This document shows, one piece after another, positions 13,712 to 37,362 of a stretch of 64,000 nt of DNA. Under the pieces are notes generated by a model. That model worked only from the letters and a program-made list of their open reading frames with translations, searched no databases and had not been told where the DNA came from. The DNA is taken from positions 46,751-110,750 of IMG/VR virus record IMGVR_UViG_3300045988_056969; one strand, 5' to 3'. This DNA is from a virus. The stretch's first letter is position 1; every line of letters begins with the position of its first letter. The translations under genes and the position numbers were made by a program.

Positions 13712-15823
13712 AATTAAAAGTCTCCTGGGTCAAAACCATCCACAGCTCCAGCTCTAACAGTAGATTGTTCAGTAAGTTCTTTCTTAACCTAGTCTTCTAG
13801 TGTTATGAGTTCTTCATGAACTTTGTGAAGAGTAGCCATTTCCTTCATTACTTTTTCAGCCTGGAATACTGGCTTGCCGTTATTATCACGCTCATTTAAA
13901 TCTACAATAGTTTCGAAATAATCAATAAACTAGTCTGCAGCTCTTTTAGCTGCTTCTAGTAATTTTATTGACTTGTTTGAATCTTGTAACGCTCTGTATT
14001 TCCTACAAGCTTCTCTAAATATAGGGTCATTAAATTCTGACTCTGTCAATCCAGAATCACTAATAGCTTCGTCATGTCGTTCATGTTCCGAATACTAACT
14101 GTACGGACTTTTCCAGTCTATAGCTAAATAAATGTAAGATAGTTCTCTAGTAGCTCTATCCTTTTCTGCAGATTTATCCCTCTAGATTAAAGCCTTAAAT
14201 TCCTTAACTAGTAATATCTCTGGTTCATTTATTTCTAGCTATTTAGTTAAAGTGTTATAGTTAAATACATTCATAATCATTAATCATTATCATACACATT
14301 AGATAATCTTATTATTTCTTTTTCATTTTGGAACCGCACTTATTGACTTTCATTTTTGAGCCACAAGCGTCTTTCTTAGCATATTGTTTTCTGTCAGGAA
14401 CCCATTTTCCTCCCTGGAAATTACCCTTATGTCCTTTATTGGCCATAGTTTCCTAATCATTGTATTTATTGATTGATATAGAATCTCTTGAGGCTTCGTC
14501 TCTAGCAGATTTCATATCTTTCTTATACTAAGCTCTTCCTGCCTTAAATTTATCAACTTCATTAGCTTTCTTAGTAACTTTAGTTCCTTTTTGTGCTTTC
14601 TGGCAAGCTTTACAGATTCTACCGCCTTGCTTAAAATATACAAGCTCTTCTCCTTCTGGACATACTCCTTTTAGCTTCTTATAATACTCAAGCTTAGCTC
14701 CAAGCCTAGCCATTACTCCTCCTTGCATTTTCTGCATAAATTCCTGATACTTAGCTTTAATGCCGTCTTCACCTAATTGTTCAGCATAAGCTTGTAAATC
14801 CTGTTCAGACTATATCTGAACTCCCTATGACTGCGCATCCTATATTAAATATGCCACAAACGCTTTTTGTAATTCTTGTTGATTATTCATTGTTCCTCCT
14901 TGTTGAAATTTAGTTGTATGTCCCGGAGATAATGTTAATGGTTTAGCTTCTGATTTTCTAGAATTCCATACATCTCCAAGATAATTAAATAATCTCTATA
15001 ACCCCCTATGTATCCCAAAATCTCCTCCTTGTACTGTATTTCCCATAGTATATCTAATGGTAGAAGGTTGTTTAGGCTTACTTGAAGGCTACTCGGCTCT
15101 TGTCTATTCACTAGCTGGCTAACTGCCTCTTGTAATAGTTGGTATTCCTCTACCCCAAGTAGTTCCTTTTGTTGTAGCAATTAGGTCTGGAGCTTCTATA
15201 CTAATCTAAGTATCTGACTAAGGAATCTGAATGGTAGAAGGTTGTTTAGGCTTACTTGAAGGCTGTCCTAAGTCTGTAGTATATACAGAATTTCCCCACA
15301 TAAACTGTTTTAGTCCTCTCTCTCTAGCAGCCCTAAAAGCTGTCTTAAAATCTTTAACACCTCTTAAATCATCCTAAGCTATTTCAGCAGTAGGAAGAGG
15401 TTCTAATCTTGTGGGTAATGAAGGCATTTCTGGAGCATCAAAATATGCCTCTTGTAACTTAGGCATTTTCTATTGTGCGGTTCTTCTAATAATGTCTGGA
15501 TTAGTTGCCCAAGTCTAATGCAACTACCTCAAGGTTCTCTCATCTAAGTCCGCATCTCCGTAAATAATTTTGATATTACGCATCAATTCAGGGTCAAACT
15601 ACACTTTAGCCATTACTTTTCTACTTTAATTAAATCCTTAGTATTAAACACTGCTTCCTACATAAGTCCGGAATCAGTAAACCATCTACATCTTAATCCT
15701 CGTAATCCTTGGTTATCTTTAAATAAAGCTGCTTCTCTTCTTAGAACAAGCATAACTGGAGAATGCATTACTTTACACTACCGTAAAGTAACACAATCCC
15801 CAGGCTTAAAATAAACTTTTTCA
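13712..15823 (-). other. Additional late genes with in-frame TAG (fragments 14528-14737 zinc-ribbon CxxC..CxxC; 14935-15180)
   Basis: Short minus-strand ORF fragments in several frames; boundaries not resolved. Confidence 0.3.
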
Positions 15824-16426
15824 TCAATTGTTTCCATACTTCAATTCGTTTCTTCTTTCAGTTAGATTTTCGTTAACTACAGCCATAATTCTGTTCTCAT
15901 TAACTACAACAAATCCAAACTTGTAGAACGGAACCATGCACTCGCTAGCTATTGTATAGAATACTATATCTCCAGGTTTTAGGAACTCACACTTGTGCCC
16001 GACCTCAATAACAGTACCCACTTTAATAAATTGTTGTTCTTCTTCTATTTCTCCTGTTTCATTAGATTTATATGTTGGAGCAAATCCACCTAAGTCTGTA
16101 ATTAATCCACTCTTAGTAGTTTTAATTTTTTGAAACGGATTTTGTTCGAAAGGTTTAATTAATGCATACCCATACATAGGCATAATTTCTACACCATTCA
16201 TATCCTCAGATAATGATTTGGCGTAAGATTCTAAAGCTGCATTATGTTTAGAGAATTTATCTTCTAATTCATCTACTGCTGTATTGAATCTTTCCTGTTT
16301 TTCTCTTAATAAAGTTTTATCTGCAGCTTCTCCATTTACTATAAGGTGCTGTCCTGTACCTTCCATACCAGTTATAGCTAGTGCTAGTTTCTCATTACTG
16401 TTCAATTCTGTTCTTAAAGTTTCCAT
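15824..16426 (-). CDS. Hypothetical protein (200 aa), TGA stop
   Basis: Intact ORF in the track; no confident homology. Confidence 0.5.
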   Translation of the reverse strand: METLRTELNSNEKLALAITGMEGTGQHLIVNGEAADKTLLREKQERFNTAVDELEDKFSKHNAALESYAKSLSEDMNGVEIMPMYGYALIKPFEQNPFQKIKTTKSGLITDLGGFAPTYKSNETGEIEEEQQFIKVGTVIEVGHKCEFLKPGDIVFYTIASECMVPFYKFGFVVVNENRIMAVVNENLTERRNELKYGNN

Positions 16427-20287: not shown

Positions 20288-20304
20288 AACTATTAATTTT
20301 GGCG

Positions 20305-20376
20305 TTGCCCTACTAGGATTCGAACCCAGACTAAATGATTTAGAGTCATCTGTGCTGACCATTACACCATAGGGCA
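20305..20376 (-). tRNA. Suppressor tRNA, anticodon CTA (reads UAG); clean cloverleaf; probably Gln-derived
   Basis: Minus-strand TGCCCTA-T-G-GTGT-AATGGTCA-GCAC-A-GATGA-CTCTAAA-TCATT-TAGT-CTGGG-TTCGAAT-CCTAG-TAGGGCA-A. All stems pair. The D-arm is identical to the tRNA-Gln(TTG)-like gene at 34198. Confidence 0.8.
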
Positions 20377-23343: not shown

Positions 23344-23413
23344 TCCCTACTAGTATAATGGATTGCGTCTCCCTTTAAAGGAGAAGATTCTGGTTCAAGT
23401 CCAGAGTAGGGAT
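23344..23413 (+). tRNA. tRNA with anticodon TTA (UUA; would read UAA, and UAG by wobble); ochre-suppressor-like
   Basis: TCCCTAC/GTAGGGA acceptor; anticodon arm TCTCC-CTTTAAA-GGAGA; T-arm TCTGG-TTCAAGT-CCAGA. Confidence 0.6.
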
Positions 23414-23448
23414 CTTCATAGTTATATTATTTGTGATTATTACTTTTC

Positions 23449-24569: not shown

Positions 24570-25529
24570 ATGAAGACAATACTTACTCACATAGGAAAGA
24601 TTTATGTTGATACAGAACATAAACTTGAATTTCTAACCGTAGGAGACTATGGAAAAGAGAACAATATCAAAGCTAATTTCCTAGGATTAACTAAGGAGAT
24701 TAACGGAGTAGCTAATACTGAAGTTGACCTTAGTAAGAAGTGGGTTGCAACTATTTCAACTCAGAAAGGCTGTCCTATGCATTGTAAATTCTGTGATGTT
24801 CCCAAGTTTGGATTCTATGGAAATGCTTCTATAGAAGATATGGATAGACAAATCCGAACTATTATAGAAGGCGAAAGTGTCAGAGAAACAGACAGGTTTA
24901 ATGTACACTTTGCTAGAATGGGAGAACCAACATGGAATGATAATGTATTAGCATTTGGACTTGCTCTCAGAGGTGTGGTTAAGTCTGCAGGGTTAATAGC
25001 TAAAACTGTTCATCCAGTAGTTTCCACGATGCTTCCGAAAGCAAATAATAAGCTTGGAAACTTCTTACAGGTTTGGTGTAGCATAAAAAATGAGTTCTAC
25101 AATGGAGAAGCAGGCTTGCAGTTTTCAATCAATTCTACAGACGATGAACAGAGAAATGAGCTGTTTGACTCTAAGAGTTTGTCACTAGCACAAATTTCCC
25201 GGTTGGCTGACGAGTTACCAATGCCAGTAGGCAGAAAGTATACTCTAAATTTTCCAGTAACCTCACAAACTATTCTCGATGCGAAGGAATTGTCAAAGCT
25301 ATTTGATAGGGAGAAATTTATTGTTAAAATCACTCCTATACATGAAACAGCTTCTGCTATAGAGAATGGTTTCCAGGTAACTGGATACTCTGATTATGAC
25401 GTTTATCGTCGCTTTGAACAACCTTTATTGAAAGAAGGTTGGGATGTTATAGTGTTTGTTCCATCTAAGGAGGAAGATTCTGACCGAATTACTTGTGGGA
25501 ACGCACTAATCTCTGAAGAGAAGATTTAA
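24570..25529 (+). CDS. Radical-SAM RNA methyltransferase of the RlmN/Cfr family
   Basis: STQKGCPMHCKFCDV (RlmN GCALECKFC), ARMGEPTWN (MGMGEPLLN), INSTDDEQR (LHAPNDEIR), C-terminal ITCGNAL (AACGQL). Confidence 0.7.
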   Translation: MKTILTHIGKIYVDTEHKLEFLTVGDYGKENNIKANFLGLTKEINGVANTEVDLSKKWVATISTQKGCPMHCKFCDVPKFGFYGNASIEDMDRQIRTIIEGESVRETDRFNVHFARMGEPTWNDNVLAFGLALRGVVKSAGLIAKTVHPVVSTMLPKANNKLGNFLQVWCSIKNEFYNGEAGLQFSINSTDDEQRNELFDSKSLSLAQISRLADELPMPVGRKYTLNFPVTSQTILDAKELSKLFDREKFIVKITPIHETASAIENGFQVTGYSDYDVYRRFEQPLLKEGWDVIVFVPSKEEDSDRITCGNALISEEKI

Positions 25530-25591: not shown

Positions 25592-25663
25592 CTTTCCTTA
25601 GTTCAATGGATAGAACCTCTGTCTTCTAAACAGATAATTCCAGTTCGAATCTGGAAGGAAAGA
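25592..25663 (+). tRNA. tRNA-Arg (anticodon TCT)
   Basis: CTTTCCT/AGGAAAG acceptor; D GTTC/GAAC; anticodon arm TCTGT-CTTCTAA-ACAGA; T-arm TCCAG-TTCGAAT-CTGGA. Confidence 0.75.
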
Positions 25664-25670
25664 CTATTAT

Positions 25671-25742
25671 TCTCCCCTTAGCTCAACGGTAGAGCTTTCG
25701 ACTTTTAATCGAAAGACAAGAGTTCGACTCTCTTAGGGAGAA
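25671..25742 (+). tRNA. tRNA-Lys (anticodon TTT)
   Basis: D GCTC/GAGC; anticodon arm TTCGA-CTTTTAA-TCGAA; T-loop TTCGACT; encoded CCA. Confidence 0.7.
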
Positions 25743-25763
25743 CCAACTTTAAATAATTAAGCT

Positions 25764-26137
25764 ATGATAAATGTAGACGAATTAAGAAACAAAAAGTAGC
25801 TCGGAGAAATAGGAGAGCGTATAGCCATTGGTGAATTATCAAAATATGGATTAGATATTTTATTACCAATGTCTGACAATCTACCATTTGATTTTGTTAT
25901 AATAACAAGTTTTACAGAACTTAGGTGAAAACTACTGCGAGTAAAACTGTAAATAACTCGTTGAACTTTAGTTTAACAAGTAATAATTATAACAAAGGGA
26001 CCGTTCACAAATACAACGAGGATGAAATAGATATTATGATATGTTGCGACCTTCATAACATCTATATATTTCCAGAATGTGATGTTGCTAATAGAAATTC
26101 TATTACTATTAGGGAGGAACCTCCAGCTAATAATTAG
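25764..26137 (+). pseudogene. YraN/UPF0102-like PD-(D/E)xK endonuclease paralog, apparently frameshifted; carries TAG at the motif-III position
   Basis: 25764-25927 gives MINVDELRNKK-Q-LGEIGERIAIGELSKYGLDILLP...FDFVIITSF, then TGA. A different frame (25925-26137) continues RT-Q-VKTTASKT..., parallel to the 27326-27727 protein. Confidence 0.4.
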
Positions 26138-26284
26138 ACAAAAGGTATAAACTTTGCAAAAGATTGCATCATATCTATAGAAAGATTAAATTATACTTTC
26201 TCTAAGATAGAGAAATAATTCCCTATTAATAGGGAAGTCTTTTATTCCGCTAGTAAACATTTGTTGTGAAACACGTGTTTGCAT

Positions 26285-26357
26285 CTGGGTATAGTCGAGT
26301 TGGTAAGATGCTACATTTGGGATGTAGAGACCGCAGGTTCGAGTCCTGCTATCCAGA
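26285..26357 (+). tRNA. tRNA-Pro (anticodon TGG); D-stem irregular
   Basis: CTGGGTA/TATCCAG acceptor; anticodon arm CTACA-TTTGGGA-TGTAG; T-arm GCAGG-TTCGAGT-CCTGC. Confidence 0.6.
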
Positions 26358-26569
26358 CAAGAAGTAATCAACATTCACTATTAGTACAGCAATTAGGACT
26401 GTAGGGTGCCTTTTAGATGAATCCCCGATTACTCCAATTAACAGAGGTGAGTTCCCTTAAAATTGTTACCACGCACTAGTGCGGCTATTAGCTACTAGAG
26501 GACTTGGGGTGCCAAGAGGAAGAATTGTAGTAGCTATGTTAATTAGAACAAATCTGTTAATTGCTTTAT

Positions 26570-26653
26570 GGGATAGCGCCAACGATGGAGAGTTGGGACG
26601 GACTGTAAATCCGTTGCCTTTAGGCTTAGTAGGTTCGAATCCTACCTATCCCA
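26570..26653 (+). tRNA. tRNA-Tyr (anticodon GTA), long variable arm
   Basis: GGGATAG/CTATCCC acceptor; anticodon arm ACGGA-CTGTAAA-TCCGT; 14-nt variable arm; T-arm GTAGG-TTCGAAT-CCTAC. Confidence 0.75.
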
Positions 26654-26680
26654 CAATTATGTAAAATAACTTACCAAAAG

Positions 26681-27052
26681 ATGATAAGAATTTCTAGAAT
26701 TGTAGCTAAGGATAGAATAGCAGATTTGCTAGACTTGAATTTCGTATCTAAGATAACTCTTAGACAAGGTAGACAAGGATTCAAAAATCCTGCAATTTGC
26801 AGAGTGGAAATCTATCTCCAAGTAGATAATGATACAGAATACTTTAATAGTGTTATGAGTAACATTGTTGACTGGGGAAAGGAGCGTAATTGTAATATTG
26901 CTGTTACCACAGCAAATATGGCTCTACATGATGGATTTATTAAAGAGTCTGCATTTGATGACTTTGATTATCCTATGCCAAAAAAGTATAAGGACTTATG
27001 CAGCGTATATTCTGACGAATATTTTAGACTATTTAATAGGAGAAAGATATAA
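26681..27052 (+). CDS. Hypothetical protein
   Basis: ORF track. Confidence 0.45.
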   Translation: MIRISRIVAKDRIADLLDLNFVSKITLRQGRQGFKNPAICRVEIYLQVDNDTEYFNSVMSNIVDWGKERNCNIAVTTANMALHDGFIKESAFDDFDYPMPKKYKDLCSVYSDEYFRLFNRRKI

Positions 27053-27265
27053 TGGAAGACAAATATGAAGGGCTATCTGATGAAGAACTCAAAGAAATCT
27101 TCGAAGATATGCAGGCAGACTATTGGATAGATTATTATCAATCTATCTATGAATAAAACCCTATTAGCGAGACCTAGGATATGGATTTTAGAAATATGTA
27201 TACCCACTGCATATAGGTTAGTCATATTTAAATGAGGAAACCAGGGTTCTCTACTAGGTCGATTC

Positions 27266-27300
27266 GGGATTGTAACCGGTAATTGGTAGCCGCGCAGATT
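27266..27300 (+). tRNA. 5' half (exon 1) of a split type-II tRNA: acceptor GGGATTG, D-arm, 5' strand of the anticodon stem GCAGA
   Basis: Pairs perfectly with the 3' half at 27826-27872 (acceptor 7/7 bp, anticodon stem GCAGA/TCTGC). Confidence 0.5.
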
Positions 27301-27325
27301 AAACTAATAATTAAAAATTAAATTT

Positions 27326-27727
27326 ATGGAATTAAGAGAATTTTCTACTTTTACTAAATAGGGAAATGTAGGACTTGCTTATGCTATTGCCTATTATTCT
27401 AAATTAGGGTATACTATTAGTATTCCCTTAACTGATTCACAAGATTATGACATAATAGTTGATACTGGAAATACCTTACTAAAAGTGTAGGTAAAGACTA
27501 CAACTTGTAGAAGAGATAGTGGAAACTACTAGTTAAACTTAAAAGTAAGTGGCGGAAATAGAAGCGGAACAGGAAAAGTAAAGACCTTCGATTTAAATAA
27601 ATGCGACCTGATATTCGCAATGACTGAGTAGTTTGAATTTTATTCTATTCCGAGGTCTGAAATTTCTGCAGCATCTTCTATTACTCTTGGAGAAAAGTAT
27701 TTACCTTTCAAGGTGTCTTTAATTTAA
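27326..27727 (+). CDS. YraN/UPF0102-like PD-(D/E)xK endonuclease (133 aa) with 4 in-frame TAG; sits inside the interrupted tRNA; absent from the ORF track
   Basis: MELREFSTFTK-Q-GNVGLAYAIAYYSKLGYTISIPLTDSQDYDIIVDTGNTLLKV-Q-VKTTT... fits the G.GE..A..YL...GY.IL...GEIDLI...VEVK pattern; TAA at 27725-27727. Confidence 0.55.
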
Positions 27728-27733
27728 TAAGAG

Positions 27734-27817
27734 GGGAGATTATTCCGTAGATGGTAGCGGGGCGCACTGTAAATGCGCTGCCTAACGGCTCGGGGTGTTC
27801 GACTCACTCATCTCCCA
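27734..27817 (+). tRNA. tRNA-Tyr-like (anticodon GTA) with a long variable arm, lying inside the tRNA-interrupting insertion
   Basis: GGGAGAT/ATCTCCC acceptor; anticodon arm GCGCA-CTGTAAA-TGCGC; T-arm GGGTG-TTCGACT-CACTC; weak D-stem. Confidence 0.5.
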
Positions 27818-27825
27818 CTACTAAT

Positions 27826-27872
27826 AAATCTGCTCTCTTTTGAGACTGGAGGTTCGAGTCCTCCCAATCCCA
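27826..27872 (+). tRNA. 3' half (exon 2) of the split tRNA: TCTGC anticodon-stem strand, variable hairpin CTCTC-ttt-GAGA, T-arm GGAGG-TTCGAGT-CCTCC, acceptor CAATCCC, discriminator A
   Basis: Complementary to exon 1 at 27266-27300. Confidence 0.5.
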
Positions 27873-28112
27873 CACTAATTTCAATATATTATGATGATAT
27901 TTGTATATTCAGCATTTATATACATAATAAGCATGTACATAGTTGGCCTTTATATGGCAGTAAATGAACGATTTGTTACAGTTAGAAGACTCGCAATAAT
28001 GGCATTACCAGTAATAAATACTATATTTGTTATTGTAATACTATTATTTGGTATTAAACCATTTATAAAAACAGTTATAAACGAATTTAAAGAAATTACA
28101 AAATGACAAATT

Positions 28113-28358
28113 ATGAGTACGGAGAAGGATACTTACCAGAAATCTGGTACTAGTGTAGTATTTCAAAAAGAAATTAAGCAGTGTAGAGAATGTCCGCACT
28201 GCTTAATTGTTCCTGACCCAGATCCTAATGACTGGTTCAATGATGACGACGAGAAAGCGCTCTGTAAGGAGTCTGAGAATAAACTAATTGAAGGAATGTT
28301 AAGACCTTACGAAAGGGTATTAATTCCAGATTGGTGTCCATTAAAAACTAATAAATAA
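28113..28358 (+). CDS. Small zinc-binding protein (CxxC...CxxC...C)
   Basis: ORF track. Confidence 0.45.
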   Translation: MSTEKDTYQKSGTSVVFQKEIKQCRECPHCLIVPDPDPNDWFNDDDEKALCKESENKLIEGMLRPYERVLIPDWCPLKTNK

Positions 28359-28359
28359 A

Positions 28360-28827
28360 ATGAATAAAATGAATAAAATGAATAAAACAAAAGCTTGCCT
28401 TGAAATAACTTTAGAACAGGCACGTAAATGGTATGAGAGTGGCAATGAAGACTTGAAAAAATTAGCTCTTACCGCTTTTAGTGAAGAAGTTCTAGTCCCT
28501 TCTCTTGGAGAAATATTAGAATCTGAAAAGGATTGGGATGTGCTATTTTTACCTTTAGGGATATCAGAGCAAACTAAGTCTCTAATTTGTCTACAAATAG
28601 TAGCTAATTACTTAAACAATGGTTGGAATAAAACAGAGAGTAACAGCGGTTATTTCCTTGGAAGGGGTTCTTCTCTATCTGGAAAGACGGAAACTGATAT
28701 AAAAGGAGTGTACGTCGTTATGCATCAAAACGTAAAATATCCAGGTGTTGTTTATTTTAGAACTGTAGCTGATGTACAGAAAGCGGTGAAGATACTAGGA
28801 AAGAAGTTGCTGCCGCTATTCGAATAA
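28360..28827 (+). CDS. Hypothetical protein (N-terminal MNK x3 repeat)
   Basis: ORF track. Confidence 0.45.
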   Translation: MNKMNKMNKTKACLEITLEQARKWYESGNEDLKKLALTAFSEEVLVPSLGEILESEKDWDVLFLPLGISEQTKSLICLQIVANYLNNGWNKTESNSGYFLGRGSSLSGKTETDIKGVYVVMHQNVKYPGVVYFRTVADVQKAVKILGKKLLPLFE

Positions 28828-28834
28828 TTTGATG

Positions 28835-28908
28835 GTGTTATTAGTTCAGTTGGTCAGAACGCTACATTGTGGCTGTAGAGGTCAGCGGTTCGAATCCGCT
28901 ATAACACC
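28835..28908 (+). tRNA. tRNA-His (anticodon GTG) with G-1 and discriminator C73
   Basis: G-1 then GTGTTAT/ATAACAC; D GTTC/GAAC; anticodon arm CTACA-TTGTGGC-TGTAG; T-arm AGCGG-TTCGAAT-CCGCT. Confidence 0.75.
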
Positions 28909-28938
28909 CAAACCATGTTTTATTAAATATTATAACAA

Positions 28939-29499
28939 ATGAAAAGAACTATTGAAATTGAATGTCCAGATGGTTATAAACCCATCTATAATGCCGAAAC
29001 TGGCAATGTTGAAATCGTTCCAGAAAACATTATGGGACGAATAAAGACCTATGAGGACGCTAGAGACTATCTTGGGTACTTATTTAATAGTGAAATCCAT
29101 TACACTGAATCTGTAAAGGCTCTAGCTAAGTTGCAAACAATTCTGGATGCGCTGAACGAAAAGCACAAGTTCAATCTGCTGACTGGTACTATATGGTATC
29201 CCTGGGTTCGCTTCTTTAGAATGAAATCAGTTCCGAAGGATGCAGAAGTCATTGGTCACTTCCGTTATCAGGGCGAGAAATTCGCGTTGGTGGGCGGCGA
29301 CGCGGCTATTGGCGGCACTGCGGGTCTCGGCTGTTTCTGTTCTGCCTTTGGCGTCGGCTTTGCCTATTCCAATGTTGGGATGCTTGCGTGCAAATCTGAA
29401 GAGATTGCCAAATACGTATCAACCCAGTTTGGAAAGCTAGTGTTCGATGCTTGTTTTGCAAGACATTTCAAGGGTGAAGAATTTGAATGGCTTGACTAA
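28939..29499 (+). CDS. DGR target protein 2 (186 aa) with VR2 at codons about 116-146 (FALVGGDAAIGGTAGLGCFCSAFGVGFAYSNVGM)
   Basis: 29286-29375 matches the reverse complement of TR with about 25 differences, all at TR adenines in the coding sense. Confidence 0.75.
   Translation: MKRTIEIECPDGYKPIYNAETGNVEIVPENIMGRIKTYEDARDYLGYLFNSEIHYTESVKALAKLQTILDALNEKHKFNLLTGTIWYPWVRFFRMKSVPKDAEVIGHFRYQGEKFALVGGDAAIGGTAGLGCFCSAFGVGFAYSNVGMLACKSEEIAKYVSTQFGKLVFDACFARHFKGEEFEWLD
29286..29375. repeat. DGR variable repeat 2 (VR2), about 27 kb from TR
   Basis: See the alignment against the reverse complement of TR 1732-1825. Confidence 0.75.
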
Positions 29500-29978
29500 T
29501 GAAAAAGTTCCTTGTAATTATGCTTGCTATGCTCTGGATGAGCGTAGCAGCTTTTTCTCAGATAACTATATCACAAGAAGACTATGATAAGTTGCCTAGT
29601 GATACTAGAACTCAAATTGAGAAGATAACAACAGAGAAAGCTATAAAGGGTGAAATCAAGGAAGTTTCTGAGTATGCTAACCTTGGTAAGGAAATAGGCG
29701 TGGCTGTTAATGAAACTCTTAAAGCAGTTGAAGATTCCGCCATCAGAATAGCAGACTCTAATTTGGGACAAACAGCAATAACTATCGTAGTATGGAAATT
29801 ACTTTACAAAGAGATAGCAGGTGTTGTAATAGGTATCATATTATTAGGAATATCCTTGTTTATGCTACTAACTGGTAGAGGAAAGCTATCTAAGAATGAC
29901 GAAGATGCTGGAGGTTGGATAAGTGTAGTAGGAGGAGCTGTATTCTTTATATCTTCAATGATTTGTATATTTGGCTGA
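29499..29978 (+). CDS. Membrane protein with a signal peptide; translationally coupled (ATGA) to DGR target 2
   Basis: ORF track; N-terminal signal MKKFLVIMLAMLWMSVAAFSQ and a C-terminal TM helix. Confidence 0.5.
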   Translation: MKKFLVIMLAMLWMSVAAFSQITISQEDYDKLPSDTRTQIEKITTEKAIKGEIKEVSEYANLGKEIGVAVNETLKAVEDSAIRIADSNLGQTAITIVVWKLLYKEIAGVVIGIILLGISLFMLLTGRGKLSKNDEDAGGWISVVGGAVFFISSMICIFG

Positions 29979-30072
29979 GGAGCAATCCAGGCTATAGGCT
30001 GGTGTATTCTAGCTATATTCTGTGTAATATTGCTTCTTGTATGATTTTTGGCTAGTCATAAGACTAGCTTTT

Positions 30073-30162
30073 GGAAGGGTGGCAGAGTCAGGTTTATTGC
30101 AACGCTCTTGAAAAGCGTCGGGCGTGATGAGCGTCCCCAGGGTTCGAATCCCTGTCCTTCCG
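30073..30162 (+). tRNA. tRNA-Ser (anticodon TGA), type II
   Basis: GGAAGGG/TCCTTCC; anticodon arm ACGCT-CTTGAAA-AGCGT; long variable arm; discriminator G. Confidence 0.75.
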
Positions 30163-30167
30163 CAAAT

Positions 30168-30241
30168 ACGTCCGTACTCAAGTGGTTTAAGAGGATAGTC
30201 TCCAAAACTATTATTCCTAGGTTCGAATCCTAGCGGGCGTG
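30168..30241 (+). tRNA. tRNA-Trp (anticodon CCA)
   Basis: ACGTCCG/CGGGCGT; anticodon arm ATAGT-CTCCAAA-ACTAT; T-arm CTAGG-TTCGAAT-CCTAG; discriminator G. Confidence 0.7.
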
Positions 30242-30264
30242 CTATTTAATTAATAAATTAGATT

Positions 30265-30492
30265 ATGAAAAGATTAGTAATTGTTTTATTGGGGCTTATG
30301 TTGCTATATAGCTGTGGTCCAGTACCAGAGTCAAAAGCGACTATGAGCGCTCCAGACGGGATTATTCCGTTTGATAACGCAGTTCACTTCAAGTACAAGA
30401 ATCATCAGTACATTAAGTTTGTTGAAGGATTTGGACAGTATAAGATTTCCGGAGTAGTTCATGACCCAGATTGTAAATATTGTAAGAGATGA
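30265..30492 (+). CDS. Small lipoprotein (signal plus Cys: LLYSCG)
   Basis: ORF track; lipobox. Confidence 0.5.
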   Translation: MKRLVIVLLGLMLLYSCGPVPESKATMSAPDGIIPFDNAVHFKYKNHQYIKFVEGFGQYKISGVVHDPDCKYCKR

Positions 30493-31007
30493 GTGAAGTG
30501 TATTATCTTTTGGCAGCCATTTCATATGGCATTTTTCTAGTTCAATTCATTTTATCTTGGTTTGGTGGAGACACTGACTTAGATGTTGATTTAGATGGAG
30601 AACTAGATATGAACGTGAGTGATATTGTCTCATTTAAGGGATTAATCCATTTTATAATGGGAGCTAGTGGATGGCTTTGTGTTAAGCAATCCGTATCTCA
30701 TTCTGTAGAATGGTATGATTATCTAATCGCATTAGTATGCGGTATTCTTTTCGTGGTTATACTTTACTACTTATATAAACTCTGTTTAAAACTCCAGCAT
30801 CAAGTTATTCCAGAAGAGGGTGAAGCCTTGATTGGAAGGGTTGGAATTATCACAGTTCCTTGTGAAAACCATTTCTTCATTACTATTGAAGTAAATGGAG
30901 GTTCTGAGGAAATTGTAGCCTATCCAGAAGTCCCAAAAATGGGATATATGGTTGGTACTCGTGTGGTAATTTCTAAATTTGAGAATGGAAAGTATTATTT
31001 TAACTAA
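30489..31007 (+). CDS. NfeD-like membrane protein (TM helices plus a C-terminal OB-fold beta-barrel)
   Basis: Hydrophobic N-terminus; C-terminus GRVGIITVP...GYMVGTRVVISKFENGKYYF; located directly upstream of the flotillin gene, as in yqiJ-yqiK / yuaF-floT operons. Confidence 0.6.
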   Translation: MSEVYYLLAAISYGIFLVQFILSWFGGDTDLDVDLDGELDMNVSDIVSFKGLIHFIMGASGWLCVKQSVSHSVEWYDYLIALVCGILFVVILYYLYKLCLKLQHQVIPEEGEALIGRVGIITVPCENHFFITIEVNGGSEEIVAYPEVPKMGYMVGTRVVISKFENGKYYFN

Positions 31008-31024
31008 AAAAGAATTTTTAAAAA

Positions 31025-32983
31025 ATGACAACAGAAACTCTTATTGTAGCAGGTGTTATTGTATTGCTAGTAGTTTTAACCTTTATTGGACTTTTGTCAC
31101 GGTATCGTAAGTGTGCTAGTGATGAAATCTTGGTTGTGTTTGGTAAGGCTGGCAAGAAAAAGGTAGTTAACGAAAAGACTGGAAAGTCGGAGGAAGTTAT
31201 TCTGCCGTCCAAAATCATTCATGGTGGAGGTACATTCGTAATGCCAGTAATTCAAGACTGGGCTAAAATGTCCTTGAAACCTATCCAAATTCAAGTAAAT
31301 GTTACTGGTGTTTCCAGTCAAATGATTAAGGTAACTATTCCTGTAACATTGACCACTGGTATTGGAACTACTCAAACATTAATGCAAAATGCTGCAAGTA
31401 GATTCTTAACAGCTAAAACTTCTGAAATCTCAGACCAAATCAAGGATATTCTCATTGGTGAAGTGAGAAGCTTGATGGCTACAATGACGATTGAGGAAAT
31501 TAACGCTGATAGAATCAAGTTTATCGGCAAAGCTAAGGAGAATATTGAGACCGAGTTAAATAAGGTAGGTTTCAGTATTATCAACATTAACAATGCTGAT
31601 ATTTCGGATGATGCAAACTATATCAAGAATCTAGGTCAGAAAGCTGCAACTAAAGCTCTTGCTCAGGCACAAGCAGACATTGCAGAAGAGAAAAAGAAAG
31701 GAGATATTCAGATTGCAGAAACCAACAAGCAACGTGAAATTGCTGTAGCAGACGCTGAGAAAGAGCGTGAAACTACTGTTGCTCAGACTAGACAAGAGCA
31801 AGAGGTTCGTGTGGCAGAGATTAACCAGGAGAAGGAAATCAAACTTGCAGAAGCTGAGAAGAATAAGCAATCAGGTATTGCTAATCAGAAAGCTGAACAA
31901 GCTGCCAATATTGCTAAAGCTAATACTGCAGCGGAATCAGAGAAAGCTAAAGCAGAAGCTGAGAAAATTTCAGCTATAGCTAAAGCTCAAGCAGAAGCCG
32001 ATTCTAACAGAGCAGAGTCTGAATCACTGGCTGAGGCTAATGTAGCTAAGGCTAAAGCAGAAGCTGACTCTAAGAAAGCAGAAGCAGAAGCAGAGAAACA
32101 AACTCGTATTGCTCAGGCTAAACAAAAACAGGAAGCTGAGACGCAAAAGGCAATTAACGAACAGGAAGCTGCAGTTGCTAAGTATGAGTCAGACAAGCGT
32201 GTAAAGGCAGCTGAAGCTGATAAGATTGCAGGAGTGGCAGAACAAAATGCCACAATTGAAGTCTCTAAAGCTAAGGGAGAGGCCGAGAAAGCTAAGGCTG
32301 AAGCTGAAAAGGTAGCAGGAACTTCTAAGGTAGAAGCTCAAATGACTATCGAGAAAACTAAGCAAGAAAAGCAACTGGAAGTAAACGAAGCAGCTGCATT
32401 AGCTATGGAAGCTAAGCTTCATGCTGAGACGATTGTTCCTGCTCAAAAGGAGAAGGAACGTATCACGATTGAAGCAGAAGCTGTTAAGCAGAAAGCTGTA
32501 CTTGAAGCAGAAGCTAAGGCTGCTGAAATTCTGAAAGAAGCAGAAGCTAAAGCGAATGCTACAAAGTTGCAGCTAGAAGCCGAAGCTGAAGGTACAAGAA
32601 AGAAACTGCTTGCTGAAGCTGAGGGTAAGAGAGCATCTTTGATGGCTGAGGCTGATAAAGTCCAGGCTATTGAAATGGCTCCTGCTCTGGCAGTCCAGAA
32701 GATGATTGAATCTGGCTTGACTCCTGAAATGGTGGTTCAGTACAAGACAGTTGACCAGTTGACAGGTATTGCAGAAGCATCTGCTCAGATGTTTGAACAC
32801 GTTCACCTTGGACAGGTTACTGTTTATGGTAATGAGAATACCGCTGGTAATTTCATGGCTAAGACTGCTGAGAACTTGAATCCTGCTCTTGACTTATTAC
32901 GTTCTATTCCTTTCGCTGACACAGTAAAGGAAATGTTCGGAAAGAAGCAAGTAGAAGCTACTGAGTTTGAAGAAGTGAAGTAA
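31025..32983 (+). CDS. Flotillin-like SPFH/band-7 protein (652 aa) with a long Ala/Glu/Lys-rich coiled coil
   Basis: N-terminal TM segment plus SPFH core; EA/AEAEK repeats typical of FloT/YqiK. Confidence 0.8.
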   Translation: MTTETLIVAGVIVLLVVLTFIGLLSRYRKCASDEILVVFGKAGKKKVVNEKTGKSEEVILPSKIIHGGGTFVMPVIQDWAKMSLKPIQIQVNVTGVSSQMIKVTIPVTLTTGIGTTQTLMQNAASRFLTAKTSEISDQIKDILIGEVRSLMATMTIEEINADRIKFIGKAKENIETELNKVGFSIININNADISDDANYIKNLGQKAATKALAQAQADIAEEKKKGDIQIAETNKQREIAVADAEKERETTVAQTRQEQEVRVAEINQEKEIKLAEAEKNKQSGIANQKAEQAANIAKANTAAESEKAKAEAEKISAIAKAQAEADSNRAESESLAEANVAKAKAEADSKKAEAEAEKQTRIAQAKQKQEAETQKAINEQEAAVAKYESDKRVKAAEADKIAGVAEQNATIEVSKAKGEAEKAKAEAEKVAGTSKVEAQMTIEKTKQEKQLEVNEAAALAMEAKLHAETIVPAQKEKERITIEAEAVKQKAVLEAEAKAAEILKEAEAKANATKLQLEAEAEGTRKKLLAEAEGKRASLMAEADKVQAIEMAPALAVQKMIESGLTPEMVVQYKTVDQLTGIAEASAQMFEHVHLGQVTVYGNENTAGNFMAKTAENLNPALDLLRSIPFADTVKEMFGKKQVEATEFEEVK

Positions 32984-32988
32984 TCACA

Positions 32989-33038
32989 GCGAAGGGGCTT
33001 TACAAAGAATTAGTAAAGTATAACAAAAGCCCCTTCGC
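32989..33038 (+). terminator. Large stem-loop GCGAAGGGGCTTT...AAAGCCCCTTCGC after the flotillin gene
   Basis: Perfect 13-bp inverted repeat right after the TAA stop. Confidence 0.4.
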
Positions 33039-33043
33039 AATTT

Positions 33044-33131
33044 GGAGGTATGGGTGAGCGGTCTAAACCAGAGTCCTGCTAAGACTCCGGGCCTCAAAAG
33101 GGTCCCGCTGGTTCGAATCCAGCTGCCTCCG
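33044..33131 (+). tRNA. tRNA-Ser (anticodon GCT), type II
   Basis: GGAGGTA/TGCCTCC; anticodon arm GAGTC-CTGCTAA-GACTC; long variable arm; T-arm GCTGG-TTCGAAT-CCAGC; discriminator G. Confidence 0.75.
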
Positions 33132-33155
33132 CATTAACTTAAATAATTATTAGAT

Positions 33156-33575
33156 ATGAGCGAATGGAAATACATAGATTCAATCGCAGAGCTATCCGAT
33201 TTTGAATGTGCACACTGCGATACAAGAGATTTTTATATGGTTACTTATGATACTATAAGTCAACCTTGGAAAGTATTAAATAAATTCCTGAAAAAGAATA
33301 GAATTATAGTAGAACAATGTTCGTTTAATAAGGACGAGATTATTCCCTTACTAAAGAGTTTAGAGACTGCATCGGGTGGTGAGGGAGACTGGAGGCATTT
33401 GGTATTGGATTCTATTGACCATTGGTGGATAAAGTATATCCGTTTCCAGAGACTTAGTAATGGACAATACTTTTGTTTTACTGATTCTGCTGATACTATT
33501 ATTCCGCTTTATAAGGATAAACTTAAGGCAGAGTTCGTGAATCAGGATGAAAATCATAAAGTTCATGGAAGATAA
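33156..33575 (+). CDS. Hypothetical protein
   Basis: ORF track. Confidence 0.45.
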   Translation: MSEWKYIDSIAELSDFECAHCDTRDFYMVTYDTISQPWKVLNKFLKKNRIIVEQCSFNKDEIIPLLKSLETASGGEGDWRHLVLDSIDHWWIKYIRFQRLSNGQYFCFTDSADTIIPLYKDKLKAEFVNQDENHKVHGR

Positions 33576-33801
33576 AATTGAAATATTTAGAAGCCTTCAT
33601 AAAGAATTTCTCAGTATGCTTCTAGATGATACTTGGCTATGTGAGGAGCCTATTGAACTAGCAGAAGTAGAAGCGTGTTGGCAGTGGGCTATAGAAGTAG
33701 GAGAAGAAGTTGTTCCGTTAGAAGACTTTGAAAAAGAATTTAAGTTTTCTTTACAGGATTTAACTAACTGGTGGAACAAAAAAATACTAGAATTGGAATA
33801 A
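33547..33801 (+). CDS. Hypothetical protein
   Basis: ORF track. Confidence 0.4.
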   Translation: MKIIKFMEDKIEIFRSLHKEFLSMLLDDTWLCEEPIELAEVEACWQWAIEVGEEVVPLEDFEKEFKFSLQDLTNWWNKKILELE

Positions 33802-34056
33802 CTGATAGTTGAAAGTGCACTTAGTAGACTATCGACTGCATAGACCCCTTATGTAGTATATAGAGTGGATGGCTGAGGGATAAATCCAGCAAAACGTTAT
33901 TAGTAGTGCACAATGCTAATAACCTTAAGTCCGTTGAAGTCGCCTTAGTACGTGCGTAACATACTCGGAAATGCATAACTTGCTTTGGGACTCTTTTCCA
34001 TAGATGAAGGTTTTATCCGTTTACTTCATCTATGCCTTTACATTATAAACGGATAT

Positions 34057-34133
34057 GGGACGATAGCTCAGTAGGTAGAGCGCTGGACTGAAAATCCAGG
34101 ACGTTAGCGGCAGTTCGATCCTGCCTCGTCCCA
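34057..34133 (+). tRNA. tRNA-Phe (anticodon GAA); unusual 9-nt variable region
   Basis: GGGACGA/TCGTCCC; D GCTC/GAGC; anticodon arm CTGGA-CTGAAAA-TCCAG; T-arm GGCAG-TTCGATC-CTGCC. Confidence 0.7.
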
Positions 34134-34164
34134 CTTGCATTGTGTGTTTTTCATGGTAAATAGA

Positions 34165-34190
34165 CTTAGTGGTTCGTGAGAATAGCTAAG
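34165..34190 (+). other. Conserved stem-loop motif, copy b (CTTAG-TGGTTCGTGAGAATAG-CTAAG), 7 nt upstream of the next tRNA
   Basis: Same loop sequence as copies a and c with a different stem. Confidence 0.5.
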
Positions 34191-34197
34191 CCAAAAT

Positions 34198-34270
34198 TGG
34201 GCTATGGTGTAATGGTTAGCACTACAGATTTTGATTCTGTCAGTCTAGGTTCGAGTCCCTCCTACCCTAC
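34198..34270 (+). tRNA. tRNA-Gln-like (anticodon TTG); D-arm identical to the CTA suppressor; T-arm and acceptor irregular, so possibly degenerate
   Basis: TGGGCTATGGTGTAATGGTTAGCAC...ACAGA-TTTTGAT-TCTGT; acceptor TGGGCTA/TACCCTA with one C-C mismatch; T-stem pairs only 2-3 bp. Confidence 0.45.
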
Positions 34271-34455
34271 AACTTTTATTTATTAAGTAATATGAAAGAG
34301 TTAAGTGAAATTATTCAGGAGATGGTAGACAATGGCAATTCCATGGGTCAAATGGACCTAAAAACTGCCATAGTGTTTGTTACAGAGGCTTACGAATCTG
34401 GTATGGAAAAGGCTCGTTCTCTCATAACTAATGAACATAACGAGGAGGATTACTA

Positions 34456-35868: not shown

Positions 35869-35895
35869 AACTTGGGGAGCTAGTCTCCCCTTTAT

Positions 35896-35969
35896 GTCTA
35901 GATGCCCGAGCGGTCTAAGGGAACGGTCTGCAAAACCGTGTTTCGTGGGTTCGAATCCCACTCTAGATT
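35896..35969 (+). tRNA. tRNA-Cys (anticodon GCA), discriminator U
   Basis: GTCTAGA/TCTAGAT; anticodon arm ACGGT-CTGCAAA-ACCGT; T-arm GTGGG-TTCGAAT-CCCAC. Confidence 0.7.
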
Positions 35970-35989
35970 CTACACTAATCTTATTGCTT

Positions 35990-36418
35990 ATGGATAGAGA
36001 ATTGAGAAGAGAACTTTCTAAAAGAAAGTGGATTTCGAGAGCTAAAAAGGTTTACAACGCTTGCGGTAAATTTTACGTACCTGTTGCCGGGATTAAAGCC
36101 AATGTAAGGTATAATGTTCCTATAATAAGGAATAAGGCGTTGAAGGTCTGTGAGTCAATTACGGATTTCCTTGATAGTTCTAAATACGCAAAGATGCTTA
36201 AGAATTGTACTTCTCCTTATAGAAGCAGAATGATGCAATATGAATACAAGAAAGAGAATAGAAAGGACAGATATAAAGCAAAAAGAGATATTCAAGAAGG
36301 TATTCAAGAATATGAATCTAGGGACAATCTTTCGTGTTCATCCTGCATTTTCTATGATAAAGGCTTTTGCGAAAAGGGATTATTAATGACTGAAAACTGC
36401 CCAGAATATTGGGATTAA
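35990..36418 (+). CDS. Hypothetical Cys-containing protein (track ORF trimmed to the ATG downstream of the tRNA)
   Basis: ORF 35783-36418 overlaps tRNA-Cys; the first ATG after the tRNA is at 35990. Confidence 0.45.
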   Translation: MDRELRRELSKRKWISRAKKVYNACGKFYVPVAGIKANVRYNVPIIRNKALKVCESITDFLDSSKYAKMLKNCTSPYRSRMMQYEYKKENRKDRYKAKRDIQEGIQEYESRDNLSCSSCIFYDKGFCEKGLLMTENCPEYWD

Positions 36419-36421
36419 AGT

Positions 36422-36781
36422 ATGGACAAGTATATTAATGGAAGTTTAGTAAAGAGAGTTTTAGTTTTTAAAACTAGAAAGCATCCTGATTGGGTACATT
36501 ATGTGAACGATTACCGATTCTTGTTTTGGAAAATACATCGAGATTATTGGTATTATTGGGACCCATGTTTTGGAACTTATACGGAAGAAAAAATGATTTC
36601 ATCTTTAGAGAAGAGATATGCCTTCTACAAGGATGGAATAGTATATCAGAAACCTCATATCATTTTAGAGTTCTCTAAAAGACATGATGAATCTATCTAT
36701 TTTGATAGTGACGAAGAAATGGAGGGATGGTTTGAATCCTTCATGGAAGAATTTGGAAAACCGTTTATTTACATAGACTAA
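36422..36781 (+). CDS. Hypothetical protein
   Basis: ORF track. Confidence 0.45.
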   Translation: MDKYINGSLVKRVLVFKTRKHPDWVHYVNDYRFLFWKIHRDYWYYWDPCFGTYTEEKMISSLEKRYAFYKDGIVYQKPHIILEFSKRHDESIYFDSDEEMEGWFESFMEEFGKPFIYID

Positions 36782-37357: not shown

Positions 37358-37362
37358 CATTT

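What the first reader, a model, noticed from the sequence alone, without database searches (positions are those of the whole stretch)
24570..25529. Phage-encoded RlmN/Cfr-family radical-SAM methyltransferase at the head of the tRNA island
The conserved Cys cluster, the MGEPxxN motif and the C-terminal catalytic Cys all match RlmN. RlmN methylates A2503 of 23S rRNA and A37 of tRNAs. A phage copy beside about 22 phage tRNAs (including suppressors with A37) could tune decoding accuracy or read-through, or modify host ribosomes.
Basis: partly seen in the sequence, partly recalled or inferred. Interest (0 to 1): 0.6.

Follow-up and report, generated by a model that had tools for sequence, protein, structure and literature searches.

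The report
Divergent one-cysteine RlmN-like radical-SAM enzyme
The gene is real and resembles the RNA methylase RlmN, but it belongs to a separate, uncharacterised enzyme family that lacks two parts RlmN needs, so the usual label "23S rRNA/tRNA methyltransferase" is probably an over-annotation.

Summary
The ORF at 24570-25529 (+, 319 aa) is real and under strong purifying selection (dN/dS about 0.08).

It is not an RlmN or Cfr orthologue:
- It scores 31.9 bits on TIGR00048, where the cut-off is 290 and E. coli RlmN scores 594.
- It lacks the N-terminal RNA-recognition domain.
- The resolving cysteine (RlmN C118, Cfr C105) is Thr61 here, and is never Cys in 355 family sequences.

It belongs to PHROG 24834 (unknown function). 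Sister clades point to small-molecule chemistry. One is a QueT-transporter / radical-SAM / MTA-nucleosidase fusion. The other sits in a three-gene module with an isochorismatase-type hydrolase and a thioredoxin-reductase-like flavoprotein.

It is not homologous to the known queuine lyase QueL. Phage relatives have no conserved neighbour. One is in a temperate Bacteroides phage with no tRNA island, although several do sit beside tRNA or tRNA-repair genes.

The substrate is unresolved. A small purine-like molecule is my preferred guess, and RNA is the main rival.

The parts
24570..25529 (+). ORF of 319 aa: radical-SAM enzyme with an RlmN/Cfr-like core, PHROG 24834
24771..24794 (+). Codons for C68-P-M-H-C72-K-F-C75, the CX3CX2C motif that binds the [4Fe-4S] cluster
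   Evidence: Read from the translation. All three Cys are invariant in family alignment A3; in A1, C68 and C75 are invariant and C72 is nearly invariant. The motif aligns with RlmN C125/C129/C132.
24750..24752 (+). Codon for Thr61, the position equivalent to the resolving Cys118 of RlmN (Cfr C105)
   Evidence: phmmer alignment to wild-type RlmN 3rf9 and hhalign. None of 355 family sequences has Cys at this position: T 226, I 59, L 22, and others.
24918..24938 (+). Codons for M117-G-E-P-T-W-N123, the SAM-binding 'GEPxxN' motif shared with RlmN and Cfr
   Evidence: G118, P120 and N123 are invariant in both family alignments; M117 and E119 are invariant or nearly so. The motif aligns with RlmN MGMGEPLLN.
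25473..25508 (+). Codons for E302 to L313, including C309-G310-N311: the C-terminal Cys loop equivalent to RlmN C355 (AACGQL)
   Evidence: hhalign pairs ITCGNAL with AACGQLA. C309 and G310 are invariant in A3 and nearly invariant in A1. A CG[Q/N/K] motif is present in 277 of 321 family sequences long enough to test.
24645..24719 (+). Clade-specific insertion (about residues 26-50, DYGKENNIKANFLGL...). It is conserved in the phage clade and the QueT-fusion clade and absent from the environmental clade and from RlmN.
   Evidence: Alignment A1. pLDDT is below 50 for residues 28-49 despite the sequence conservation.
25592..25745 (+). tRNA-Arg(TCT) and tRNA-Lys(TTT), the first genes of the downstream tRNA array (context only, possibly co-transcribed)
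   Evidence: ARAGORN. No terminator-like site on the + strand between the stop codon and these tRNAs. The same arrangement is seen in the 87%-identical relative L007.

Best explanation
The ORF encodes a functional radical-SAM enzyme of a distinct, uncharacterised branch related to RlmN and Cfr (PHROG 24834).

Shown:
- It has the RlmN/Cfr core fold, the [4Fe-4S]/SAM site and the C-terminal Cys loop that carries the methyl group in RlmN.
- It lacks the N-terminal RNA-recognition domain and the resolving cysteine. It therefore cannot run the canonical two-cysteine RlmN/Cfr cycle and is not an orthologue of either enzyme.

Inferred:
- It reductively cleaves SAM to the 5'-deoxyadenosyl radical.
- It uses Cys309, either as a methyl/methylene carrier or as a hydrogen-atom donor, to modify or cleave a purine-like heteroaromatic substrate.
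- That substrate is more likely a free small molecule (a salvaged base, nucleoside or cofactor precursor) than 23S rRNA A2503 or tRNA A37. Both sister clades are wired to small-molecule handling: one is fused to an ECF transporter S-component of the QueT family and an MTA/SAH nucleosidase, and the other sits in an operon with, or is fused to, an isochorismatase-type cysteine hydrolase and a thioredoxin-reductase-like flavoprotein that would supply electrons.
- In the phage it acts as a stand-alone auxiliary gene working on host-supplied substrates. It is expressed from the early/accessory region that also holds the tRNA array.
For: Closest relatives are RlmN and Cfr:
- Foldseek E 1e-9 to 1e-10.
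- hhalign probability 97.5%, pairing C309 with C355 and T61 with C118.

It is not a member of either family:
- TIGR00048 scores 31.9 against a 290 cut-off. E. coli RlmN scores 594.
- None of 355 family sequences has Cys at the C118 position.
- The match to RlmN starts at RlmN residue about 100-109, so the N-terminal domain is absent.

Sister clades point to small molecules:
- 58 clusters have the architecture QueT (PF06177) + radical SAM + PNP_UDP_1. They are 41-43% identical to the window protein over its whole length. The C-terminal domain passes the NCBIfam MTA/SAH nucleosidase cut-off (223.9 against 169).
- In the environmental clade, 27 of 35 loci have an isochorismatase-family gene and 30 of 35 have a thioredoxin-reductase-like flavoprotein, either adjacent or fused.
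- An isochorismatase-family gene also lies directly upstream of a 71%-identical homologue in an alphaproteobacterial NAD-salvage cluster.

The gene behaves as a stand-alone unit:
- No neighbour family recurs in more than 6 of 45 phage-clade loci.
- It lies in the replication module of temperate Bacteroides phage Versailles, which has no tRNA island.

The gene is functional: dN/dS is 0.08-0.09.
Against: - The substrate is not identified.
- The small-molecule inference is transferred from clades that are only 30-43% identical.
- The QueT Pfam scores are only just above threshold (37-40 against 33.7).
- No queuosine genes, TGT or preQ1 riboswitch were found near any member.
- The strictly conserved C-G-(Q/N) loop is exactly the RlmN/Cfr methyl-carrier loop, which fits retained methyl-transfer chemistry.
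- Phage-clade genes are often near tRNA genes (21 of 44 loci, against 4 of 35 in the environmental clade). Some sit next to tRNA-processing genes: Thg1-like, RlaP and the CCA-adding enzyme.
- Other phages carry similarly N-terminally truncated RlmN-like genes that do keep both cysteines. RNA-directed RlmN-like enzymes without the N-terminal domain may therefore exist.
Confidence: 0.5

Rival explanations
1. One reading: an RNA C-methyltransferase that methylates an adenosine in phage or host tRNA (A37) or in 23S rRNA. It would use RlmN-like chemistry, with the covalent intermediate resolved by something other than an internal cysteine.
For: - The closest fold and sequence relatives are RlmN and Cfr.
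- The C355-equivalent Cys loop is conserved, and probably the E105-equivalent Glu (E20) as well.
- The gene sits directly upstream of 19 tRNA genes with no terminator-like site in between.
- Relatives lie beside RlaP, the CCA-adding enzyme and 9 tRNAs (L027), and near a Thg1-like gene (L025).
- tRNA genes occur within 6 kb in 21 of 44 phage-clade loci, against 4 of 35 environmental loci.
Against: - There is no Cys at the C118 position in any of 355 sequences. The equivalent Cfr C105A mutant shows no methylation (PMC2836569), and RlmN C118A was crystallised cross-linked to tRNA (PDB 5hr7 title).
- The N-terminal RNA-binding domain is missing.
- Sister clades are fused to a membrane transporter component or to a small-molecule hydrolase.
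- Versailles phage has the gene but no tRNA island.
- The nearby tRNA species differ between loci.
- tRNA arrays and accessory genes commonly share the same region of large phage genomes, so proximity is weak evidence.
Confidence: 0.3
2. A specific version of the small-molecule idea: a salvage enzyme for queuosine precursors that is not homologous to QueL, for example converting queuine to preQ1. It would raise preQ1 supply for the host tRNA-guanine transglycosylase, and so Q34 on the phage GUN-anticodon tRNAs (Tyr x2, His, Asn).
For: - The sister clade is fused to a QueT-family ECF S-component and a nucleosidase domain. This mirrors the C. difficile queK-qrtT-queL operon (PMC11477304, PMC11130926).
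- Most phage-clade and fusion-clade members come from gut or rumen samples, where queuine salvage is common (PMC11130926).
- A missing non-orthologous QueL has been postulated for streptococci (PMC12632869).
- The window encodes tRNA-Tyr(GTA) x2, His(GTG) and Asn(GTT).
Against: - No preQ1 riboswitch was found upstream of five fusion genes or in 11 other loci.
- No TGT, QueA, QueT or IU-nucleoside hydrolase was found in 79 loci.
- No que or tgt domains were found in the + strand ORFs of the window.
- The QueT scores are marginal, and the nucleosidase domain looks like an ordinary MTA/SAH nucleosidase, which could simply remove 5'-deoxyadenosine.
Confidence: 0.12
3. An enzyme acting on a pyridine or adenine nucleotide linked to NAD salvage, for example modifying nicotinamide, nicotinate or the adenine of NAD or ADP-ribose.
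For: - In four alphaproteobacterial MAG loci, a 71%-identical homologue lies in the order pncB, isochorismatase (PncA-like), radical SAM, nadE, DUF5662, NrtR.
- The window itself carries DUF5662, a NadV fragment and a Prs-like gene at 49.5-51.6 kb.
- A different phage RlmN-like clade lies next to NadV and Prs in Vibrio phages.
- The environmental clade is paired with isochorismatase-family amidohydrolases.
Against: - The four NAD-cluster loci are one closely related lineage (88-93% identical neighbours).
- In the window the NAD module is 24 kb away.
- The environmental-clade hydrolases are not specifically nicotinamidase-like.
- No radical-SAM step is known in NAD salvage (own knowledge).
Confidence: 0.08
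4. A DNA-modifying enzyme (C-methylation of adenine in phage DNA) used against host restriction.
For: - In temperate phages and prophages the gene sits in the replication/recombination region: a ParB-like gene upstream and a Holliday-junction resolvase downstream in Versailles.
- The most frequent neighbour family, in 6 of 45 loci, looks like a DNA methyltransferase. This was judged by eye only.
Against: - No DNA substrate is known for any RlmN/Cfr relative (own knowledge).
- There is no conserved DNA-binding partner.
- It does not explain the transporter and hydrolase fusions.
Confidence: 0.04

Closest known systems
RlmN (dual-specificity 23S rRNA A2503 / tRNA A37 C2-methyltransferase; TIGR00048; PDB 3rf9, 5hr7, 6fz6)
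   Same: - CX3CX2C cluster and GEPxxN motif.
- Core motifs SxxS(T)D..R and (I/L)TPxNP in the same order.
- C-terminal Cys in a C-G-(Q/N) loop aligned with C355.
   Different: - Scores 31.9 bits against a 290 cut-off.
- No N-terminal helical RNA-recognition domain.
- Thr replaces C118, and no family member has Cys there.
- Carries a clade-specific insertion of about 23 residues before the core.
- Sister clades are fused to a transporter and a nucleosidase, or to a hydrolase and a flavoprotein.
Cfr (23S rRNA A2503 C8-methyltransferase; TIGR04432, NF000424; PDB 9p0p)
   Different: - Scores 23-25 bits against cut-offs of 530-550.
- Lacks the Cfr C105-equivalent Cys and the N-terminal domain. C105A and C338A each abolish Cfr-mediated resistance, and N-terminal domain mutations reduce it (PMC2836569).
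Two-cysteine, N-terminally truncated RlmN-like proteins of Vibrio, Salmonella (Arash), Xanthomonas (JGB6) and Aeromonas phages
   Same: - Phage-encoded, about 300 aa, with no RlmN N-terminal domain.
- 23-30% identical to the window protein.
- Located in accessory regions, next to NadV and Prs in Vibrio phages.
   Different: - They keep both catalytic cysteines: Cys at position -7 and GGGCGQLW.
- They score about 116-119 bits on TIGR00048 over the whole core.
- They are better candidates for true RNA methylases than the window protein.
QueL, queuine lyase (PDB 6p78; C. difficile CD1684)
   Same: A radical-SAM enzyme. A sister clade of the window protein is fused to a QueT-family transporter component, which echoes the queK-qrtT-queL operon (PMC11477304).
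PHROG 24834 (unknown function)
   Same: Full-length match: E 1e-106, residues 2-316 against profile positions 5-324 of 336. This is the family to which the ORF actually belongs.
   Different: Nothing differs. The family has no assigned function.

Membership tests
RlmN (TIGR00048 equivalog) | Whole-protein score at or above the curated cut-off (290 bits) | tested here: not met
   31.9 bits, matching only residues 52-157. E. coli RlmN scores 593.9 bits on the same model.
RlmN / Cfr (class A radical-SAM methylases) | CX3CX2C [4Fe-4S] motif and GEPxxN SAM motif in an RlmN-type core fold | tested here: met
   [not shown]
RlmN / Cfr (class A radical-SAM methylases) | C-terminal methyl-carrier cysteine (RlmN C355, Cfr C338) | tested here: met
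   C309 aligns with C355. It is invariant in alignment A3 and nearly invariant in A1, and present as CG[Q/N/K] in 277 of 321 sequences.
RlmN / Cfr (class A radical-SAM methylases) | Second, resolving cysteine seven residues before the cluster motif (RlmN C118, Cfr C105) | tested here: not met
   Thr61 in the window protein. None of 355 family sequences has Cys at this position. The only other Cys, C170, is not conserved.
RlmN / Cfr (class A radical-SAM methylases) | N-terminal helical accessory domain for RNA recognition | tested here: not met
   Alignments to RlmN start at RlmN residues 100-109 and at TIGR00048 profile position 99. The 60 residues before the core are beta strands plus a disordered insertion in the model.
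RlmN / Cfr (class A radical-SAM methylases) | Formation of m2A or m8A at 23S A2503, or m2A at tRNA A37 | not testable with these tools
   Needs expression and nucleoside mass spectrometry.
QueL (queuine lyase) | Homology to the solved QueL (PDB 6p78) | tested here: not met
   [not shown]
QueL (queuine lyase) | Genomic linkage to queuosine salvage genes or to a preQ1 riboswitch | tested here: inconclusive
   A QueT-family domain is fused in the sister clade. However, no riboswitch and no TGT, QueA, QueT or nucleoside hydrolase was found in 79 loci or in the + strand ORFs of the window.
PHROG 24834 | Full-length profile match | tested here: met
   E 9.9e-107, 357.8 bits, residues 2-316.
Radical SAM superfamily (PF04055) | Pfam gathering score (29.5 bits) | tested here: not met
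   22.8 bits, residues 62-100 only. The motif and the fold nevertheless place it in the superfamily.

The most novel reading that the evidence does not exclude
The ORF is a phage copy of a new functional class of RlmN-like radical-SAM enzymes. These would use only the C-terminal cysteine and act on a free purine-like metabolite rather than on RNA. The most concrete version is a second, non-homologous route from queuine or queuosine to preQ1, which the phage would use to keep Q34 on its own Tyr, His and Asn tRNAs. The same family would then explain two other things: the QueT / radical-SAM / nucleosidase fusion proteins of gut Firmicutes, and the hydrolase-flavoprotein-radical-SAM module found widely in environmental bacteria and Asgard archaea.
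Probability: 0.15. Interest if true: 0.8.

Novelty: new variant of a known kind. Interest (0 to 1): 0.5.

Why it matters
Pipelines label thousands of these proteins "23S rRNA (adenine2503-C2)-methyltransferase" (JGI names). On that label, one would conclude that gut phages remodel host ribosomes or tRNAs.

The evidence here says the family lacks a residue and a domain that RlmN and Cfr need for that reaction. The label should not be used to infer translation control by the phage.

If the family has different chemistry or a different substrate, it would be the first class-A-like radical-SAM enzyme outside RNA methylation. It would also assign a function to a widespread phage auxiliary gene, to a conserved three-domain fusion protein in gut Firmicutes, and to a conserved three-gene module in environmental bacteria and archaea.

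If it does methylate RNA without the resolving cysteine, that would be mechanistically new in itself.

Tried and rejected

2. preQ1 or other riboswitches near family members. None found in 11 phage or bacterial loci at gathering thresholds, nor in five fusion-gene loci at E up to 1.

3. Queuosine-pathway or nucleoside-hydrolase neighbours. blastp with E. coli TGT, QueA and RihC and with the fusion-derived QueT domains found nothing in 79 loci. No such Pfam domains were found in 56 + strand window ORFs. Distant DpdA-type transglycosylases could have been missed.

4. Defence or anti-defence assignment. PADLOC gave no meaningful hit for the ORF or for the hydrolase / flavoprotein / radical-SAM module.

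5. A conserved partner gene in phages. Clustering the neighbours of 45 loci found no family in more than 6 loci.

6. Net charge or pI as an indicator of RNA binding. Uninformative: window pI 5.65, E. coli RlmN 6.56.

7. Literature. The primary QueL paper and the 7-deazaguanine review are not held. No paper on this family was found.

8. Retrieving the C. difficile QueL sequence. Not possible with the available collections. The PDB entry of its C. spiroforme homologue served instead.

9. Pseudogene or chance ORF. Rejected by dN/dS of 0.08-0.09 and by family size.

Full report
**Observation.** An ATG-initiated ORF of 319 codons lies exactly at 24570-25529 on the + strand. Its translation contains CPMHCKFC (C68, C72, C75), MGEPTWN (117-123) and a C-terminal RITCGNAL (C309). 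ARAGORN finds 21 tRNA genes in the window. Nineteen are on the + strand from 25592 to 43312, beginning 62 nt after the stop codon. A tRNA(CTA) lies at 20304-20376 (-) and a tRNA(TTA) at 23344-23414. No terminator-like site lies on the + strand between the ORF and the first tRNAs. The gene is real:
- PHROG 24834 matches at E 1e-106.
- More than 7000 relatives exist in the large protein database, the closest on contigs of about 180-190 kb.
- dN/dS against two relatives about 86% identical is 0.083 and 0.089.

**What it resembles.** The only curated families it touches are RlmN and Cfr, and only weakly:
- TIGR00048 gives 31.9 bits (cut-off 290) over residues 52-157.
- The Cfr models give 21-25 bits (cut-offs 468-550).
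- Pfam Radical_SAM gives 22.8 bits, below its threshold.

**Why it is not RlmN or Cfr.** Three defining features fail.
1. The curated score cut-offs are missed roughly ninefold for RlmN and more than twentyfold for Cfr.
2. The N-terminal RNA-recognition domain is absent. All alignments start at RlmN residue about 100-109. The first 60 residues are modelled as beta strands plus a disordered, clade-specific insertion.
3. The second catalytic cysteine is missing. RlmN C118 (Cfr C105) lies seven residues before the cluster motif. Here that position is Thr61. None of 355 family sequences has Cys there. The only other cysteine, C170, is not conserved.

In Cfr, C105A and C338A each abolish resistance. 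C105A gives a reverse-transcription stop at A2503 without methylation (PMC2836569). RlmN C118A was crystallised cross-linked to tRNA (PDB 5hr7 title). By contrast the C355-equivalent Cys309 is invariant or nearly so, and sits in a C-G-(Q/N) loop. The enzyme thus keeps the methyl-carrier loop but not the residue that releases the product.

**The family and its three clades.** A search of 1.84 billion representatives found 680 clusters at E up to 0.001.

- *Clade a (the window protein).* It is found in phages and prophages, and as a stand-alone chromosomal gene in gut Alphaproteobacteria and Bacilli MAGs, at 66-87% identity. Bacteroides phage Versailles carries a copy at 53%. This clade carries a conserved insertion, GDYGKxxNIKAxFLG.
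- *Clade b.* It is 41-43% identical to the window protein over its whole length and shares the insertion. It consists of three-domain proteins: a QueT-family ECF S-component, the radical-SAM domain and a PNP_UDP_1 domain. The last domain passes the NCBIfam cut-off for MTA/SAH nucleosidase. There are 58 clusters in Bacilli and Clostridia MAGs, encoded as isolated genes among housekeeping genes.
- *Clade c.* It is 30-37% identical and comes from environmental bacteria and archaea, including Asgard lineages. It sits in a compact module. An isochorismatase-family hydrolase is present in 27 of 35 loci. A thioredoxin-reductase-like flavoprotein is present in 30 of 35; the examples read by eye have no CxxC. 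No other neighbour recurs. Fusions of the radical-SAM domain to either partner also exist.

A membrane transporter component, a nucleosidase and a cysteine hydrolase are all small-molecule machinery. The flavoprotein is a plausible electron donor for the cluster (inference).

- no preQ1 riboswitch;
- no TGT, QueA, QueT or nucleoside hydrolase in 79 loci;
- no que or tgt domains among 56 + strand ORFs of the window.

An analogous function is not excluded. A missing QueL replacement has been postulated for streptococci (PMC12632869). The support is limited to the fusion and to the gut origin of most members.

**Context in phages.** Neighbour clustering over 45 clade-a loci shows no partner family in more than 6 loci, so the gene behaves as a stand-alone unit.

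- *tRNA-related context recurs.* The window lineage has it. A Flavonifractor locus has the order radical SAM, RlaP, CCA-adding enzyme, 9 tRNAs. A Dysosmobacter prophage has a Thg1-like gene two genes upstream. tRNA genes lie within 6 kb in 21 of 44 clade-a loci, against 4 of 35 clade-c loci.
- *But the link is loose.* The tRNA species differ between loci. Versailles, a temperate Bacteroides phage, has the gene between a ParB-like gene and a Holliday-junction resolvase. Its only tRNA annotation sits beside the integrase.
- *One alphaproteobacterial lineage points elsewhere.* There the gene is embedded in the order pncB, isochorismatase, radical SAM, nadE, DUF5662, NrtR. The window has DUF5662, a NadV fragment and a Prs-like gene 24 kb downstream.

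These contexts are compatible with a general accessory region and do not identify the substrate.

**Other phage RlmN-like genes.** The weaker tblastn hits belong to different types.
- Vibrio, Salmonella Arash and Xanthomonas JGB6 proteins keep both catalytic cysteines and score about 116-119 bits on TIGR00048. The Aeromonas hit was not examined further.
- Ounavirinae and Kehishuvirus proteins lack the C-terminal Cys region.

Phages therefore carry at least three kinds of N-terminally truncated RlmN-like genes. The window protein is the one-cysteine kind.

**Conclusion.** The ORF is a functional member of an uncharacterised one-cysteine branch of RlmN/Cfr-like radical-SAM enzymes. I regard it as shown that it is not an RlmN or Cfr orthologue, and that the automatic name "23S rRNA (adenine2503-C2)-methyltransferase" is not justified. 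The substrate is inferred, not shown.
- I favour a free purine-like small molecule, on the strength of the two sister clades (about 0.5).
- RNA methylation with a non-canonical resolution step is the main rival (about 0.3).
- Queuosine-precursor salvage, an NAD-related role and DNA modification are more specific or less likely options.

**Novelty.** This is a new variant of a known kind.

Noticed in passing
window 1-16000 (- strand), 20304-20376 (-), 23344-23414 (+): The late or structural genes on the minus strand give long ORFs only if TAG is read through: 12 ORFs of 200 aa or more in the first 21 kb, against 4 with the standard code. An amber-suppressor-type tRNA(CTA) and a tRNA(TTA) lie just downstream of this block. 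The radical-SAM gene and the + strand genes use the standard code.
   Followed up: partly
window 11348-13711 (-): With TAG read through, this ORF is a large terminase subunit. It is 26-29% identical to TerL of Crassvirales phages and 43-44% identical to unannotated human-faecal phage contigs. The window therefore comes from a divergent crAss-like phage. Related contigs are about 180-190 kb.
   Followed up: partly
window 49552-51614 (+): An NAD-salvage module: DUF5662 (49552-50076), an ORF matching only the N-terminal half of NadV/Nampt (50090-50839, 46% identical to Vibrio phage NadV residues 10-236), and a Prs-like ORF (50805-51614). NadV appears truncated or split.
   Followed up: partly
window 31025-32983 (+) and a second ORF not located: Two SPFH/Band 7 proteins are encoded in the window. 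SPFH genes also lie next to the (different) RlmN-like genes of Kehishuvirus 'tikkala' and Xanthomonas phage JGB6. The recurrence is unexplained.
   Followed up: no
L051-L085 (e.g. L054 4391-6864, L074 4323-6825): A conserved three-gene module in environmental bacteria and archaea, including Heimdallarchaeum and Promethearchaeum: an isochorismatase-family hydrolase, a thioredoxin-reductase-like flavoprotein (no CxxC in the examples read by eye) and the one-cysteine RlmN-like radical-SAM enzyme. The parts are sometimes fused (P0197, P0255). I found no description of this module.
   Followed up: partly
P0131, P0134, P0386-P0441; loci L093-L097: Three-domain proteins of about 815 aa (QueT-family S-component + one-cysteine RlmN-like radical SAM + MTA/SAH nucleosidase) form 58 clusters from Bacilli and Clostridia MAGs. 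They are encoded as isolated genes with no riboswitch detected upstream.
   Followed up: partly
L013 1030-6120 (also L015, L016, L048): In gut alphaproteobacterial MAGs ('Candidatus Enterousia' and relatives), a 71%-identical homologue lies inside an NAD cluster in the order pncB, isochorismatase (PncA-like), radical SAM, nadE, DUF5662, NrtR.
   Followed up: partly
L004 4896-5822, L005 4878-5807, L002 4902-5966; L003 4938-5813, L006 4842-5630: Other phages encode different truncated RlmN-like proteins. A two-cysteine type occurs in Vibrio, Salmonella Arash and Xanthomonas JGB6 phages, next to NadV and Prs in the Vibrio phage. A type lacking the C-terminal cysteine region occurs in Ounavirinae (Arno18) and Kehishuvirus. 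In JGB6 the gene is annotated 'prohibitin family protein', which looks like a mis-annotation.
   Followed up: partly
L090 15494-15904, L091 17107-17517, L092 19491-19901: Close relatives of the window phage encode a 136-aa protein with a tRNA_lig_CPD (cyclic phosphodiesterase) Pfam hit a few kb downstream of the radical-SAM gene. This suggests tRNA repair functions in the same island. I did not locate a counterpart in the window.
   Followed up: no
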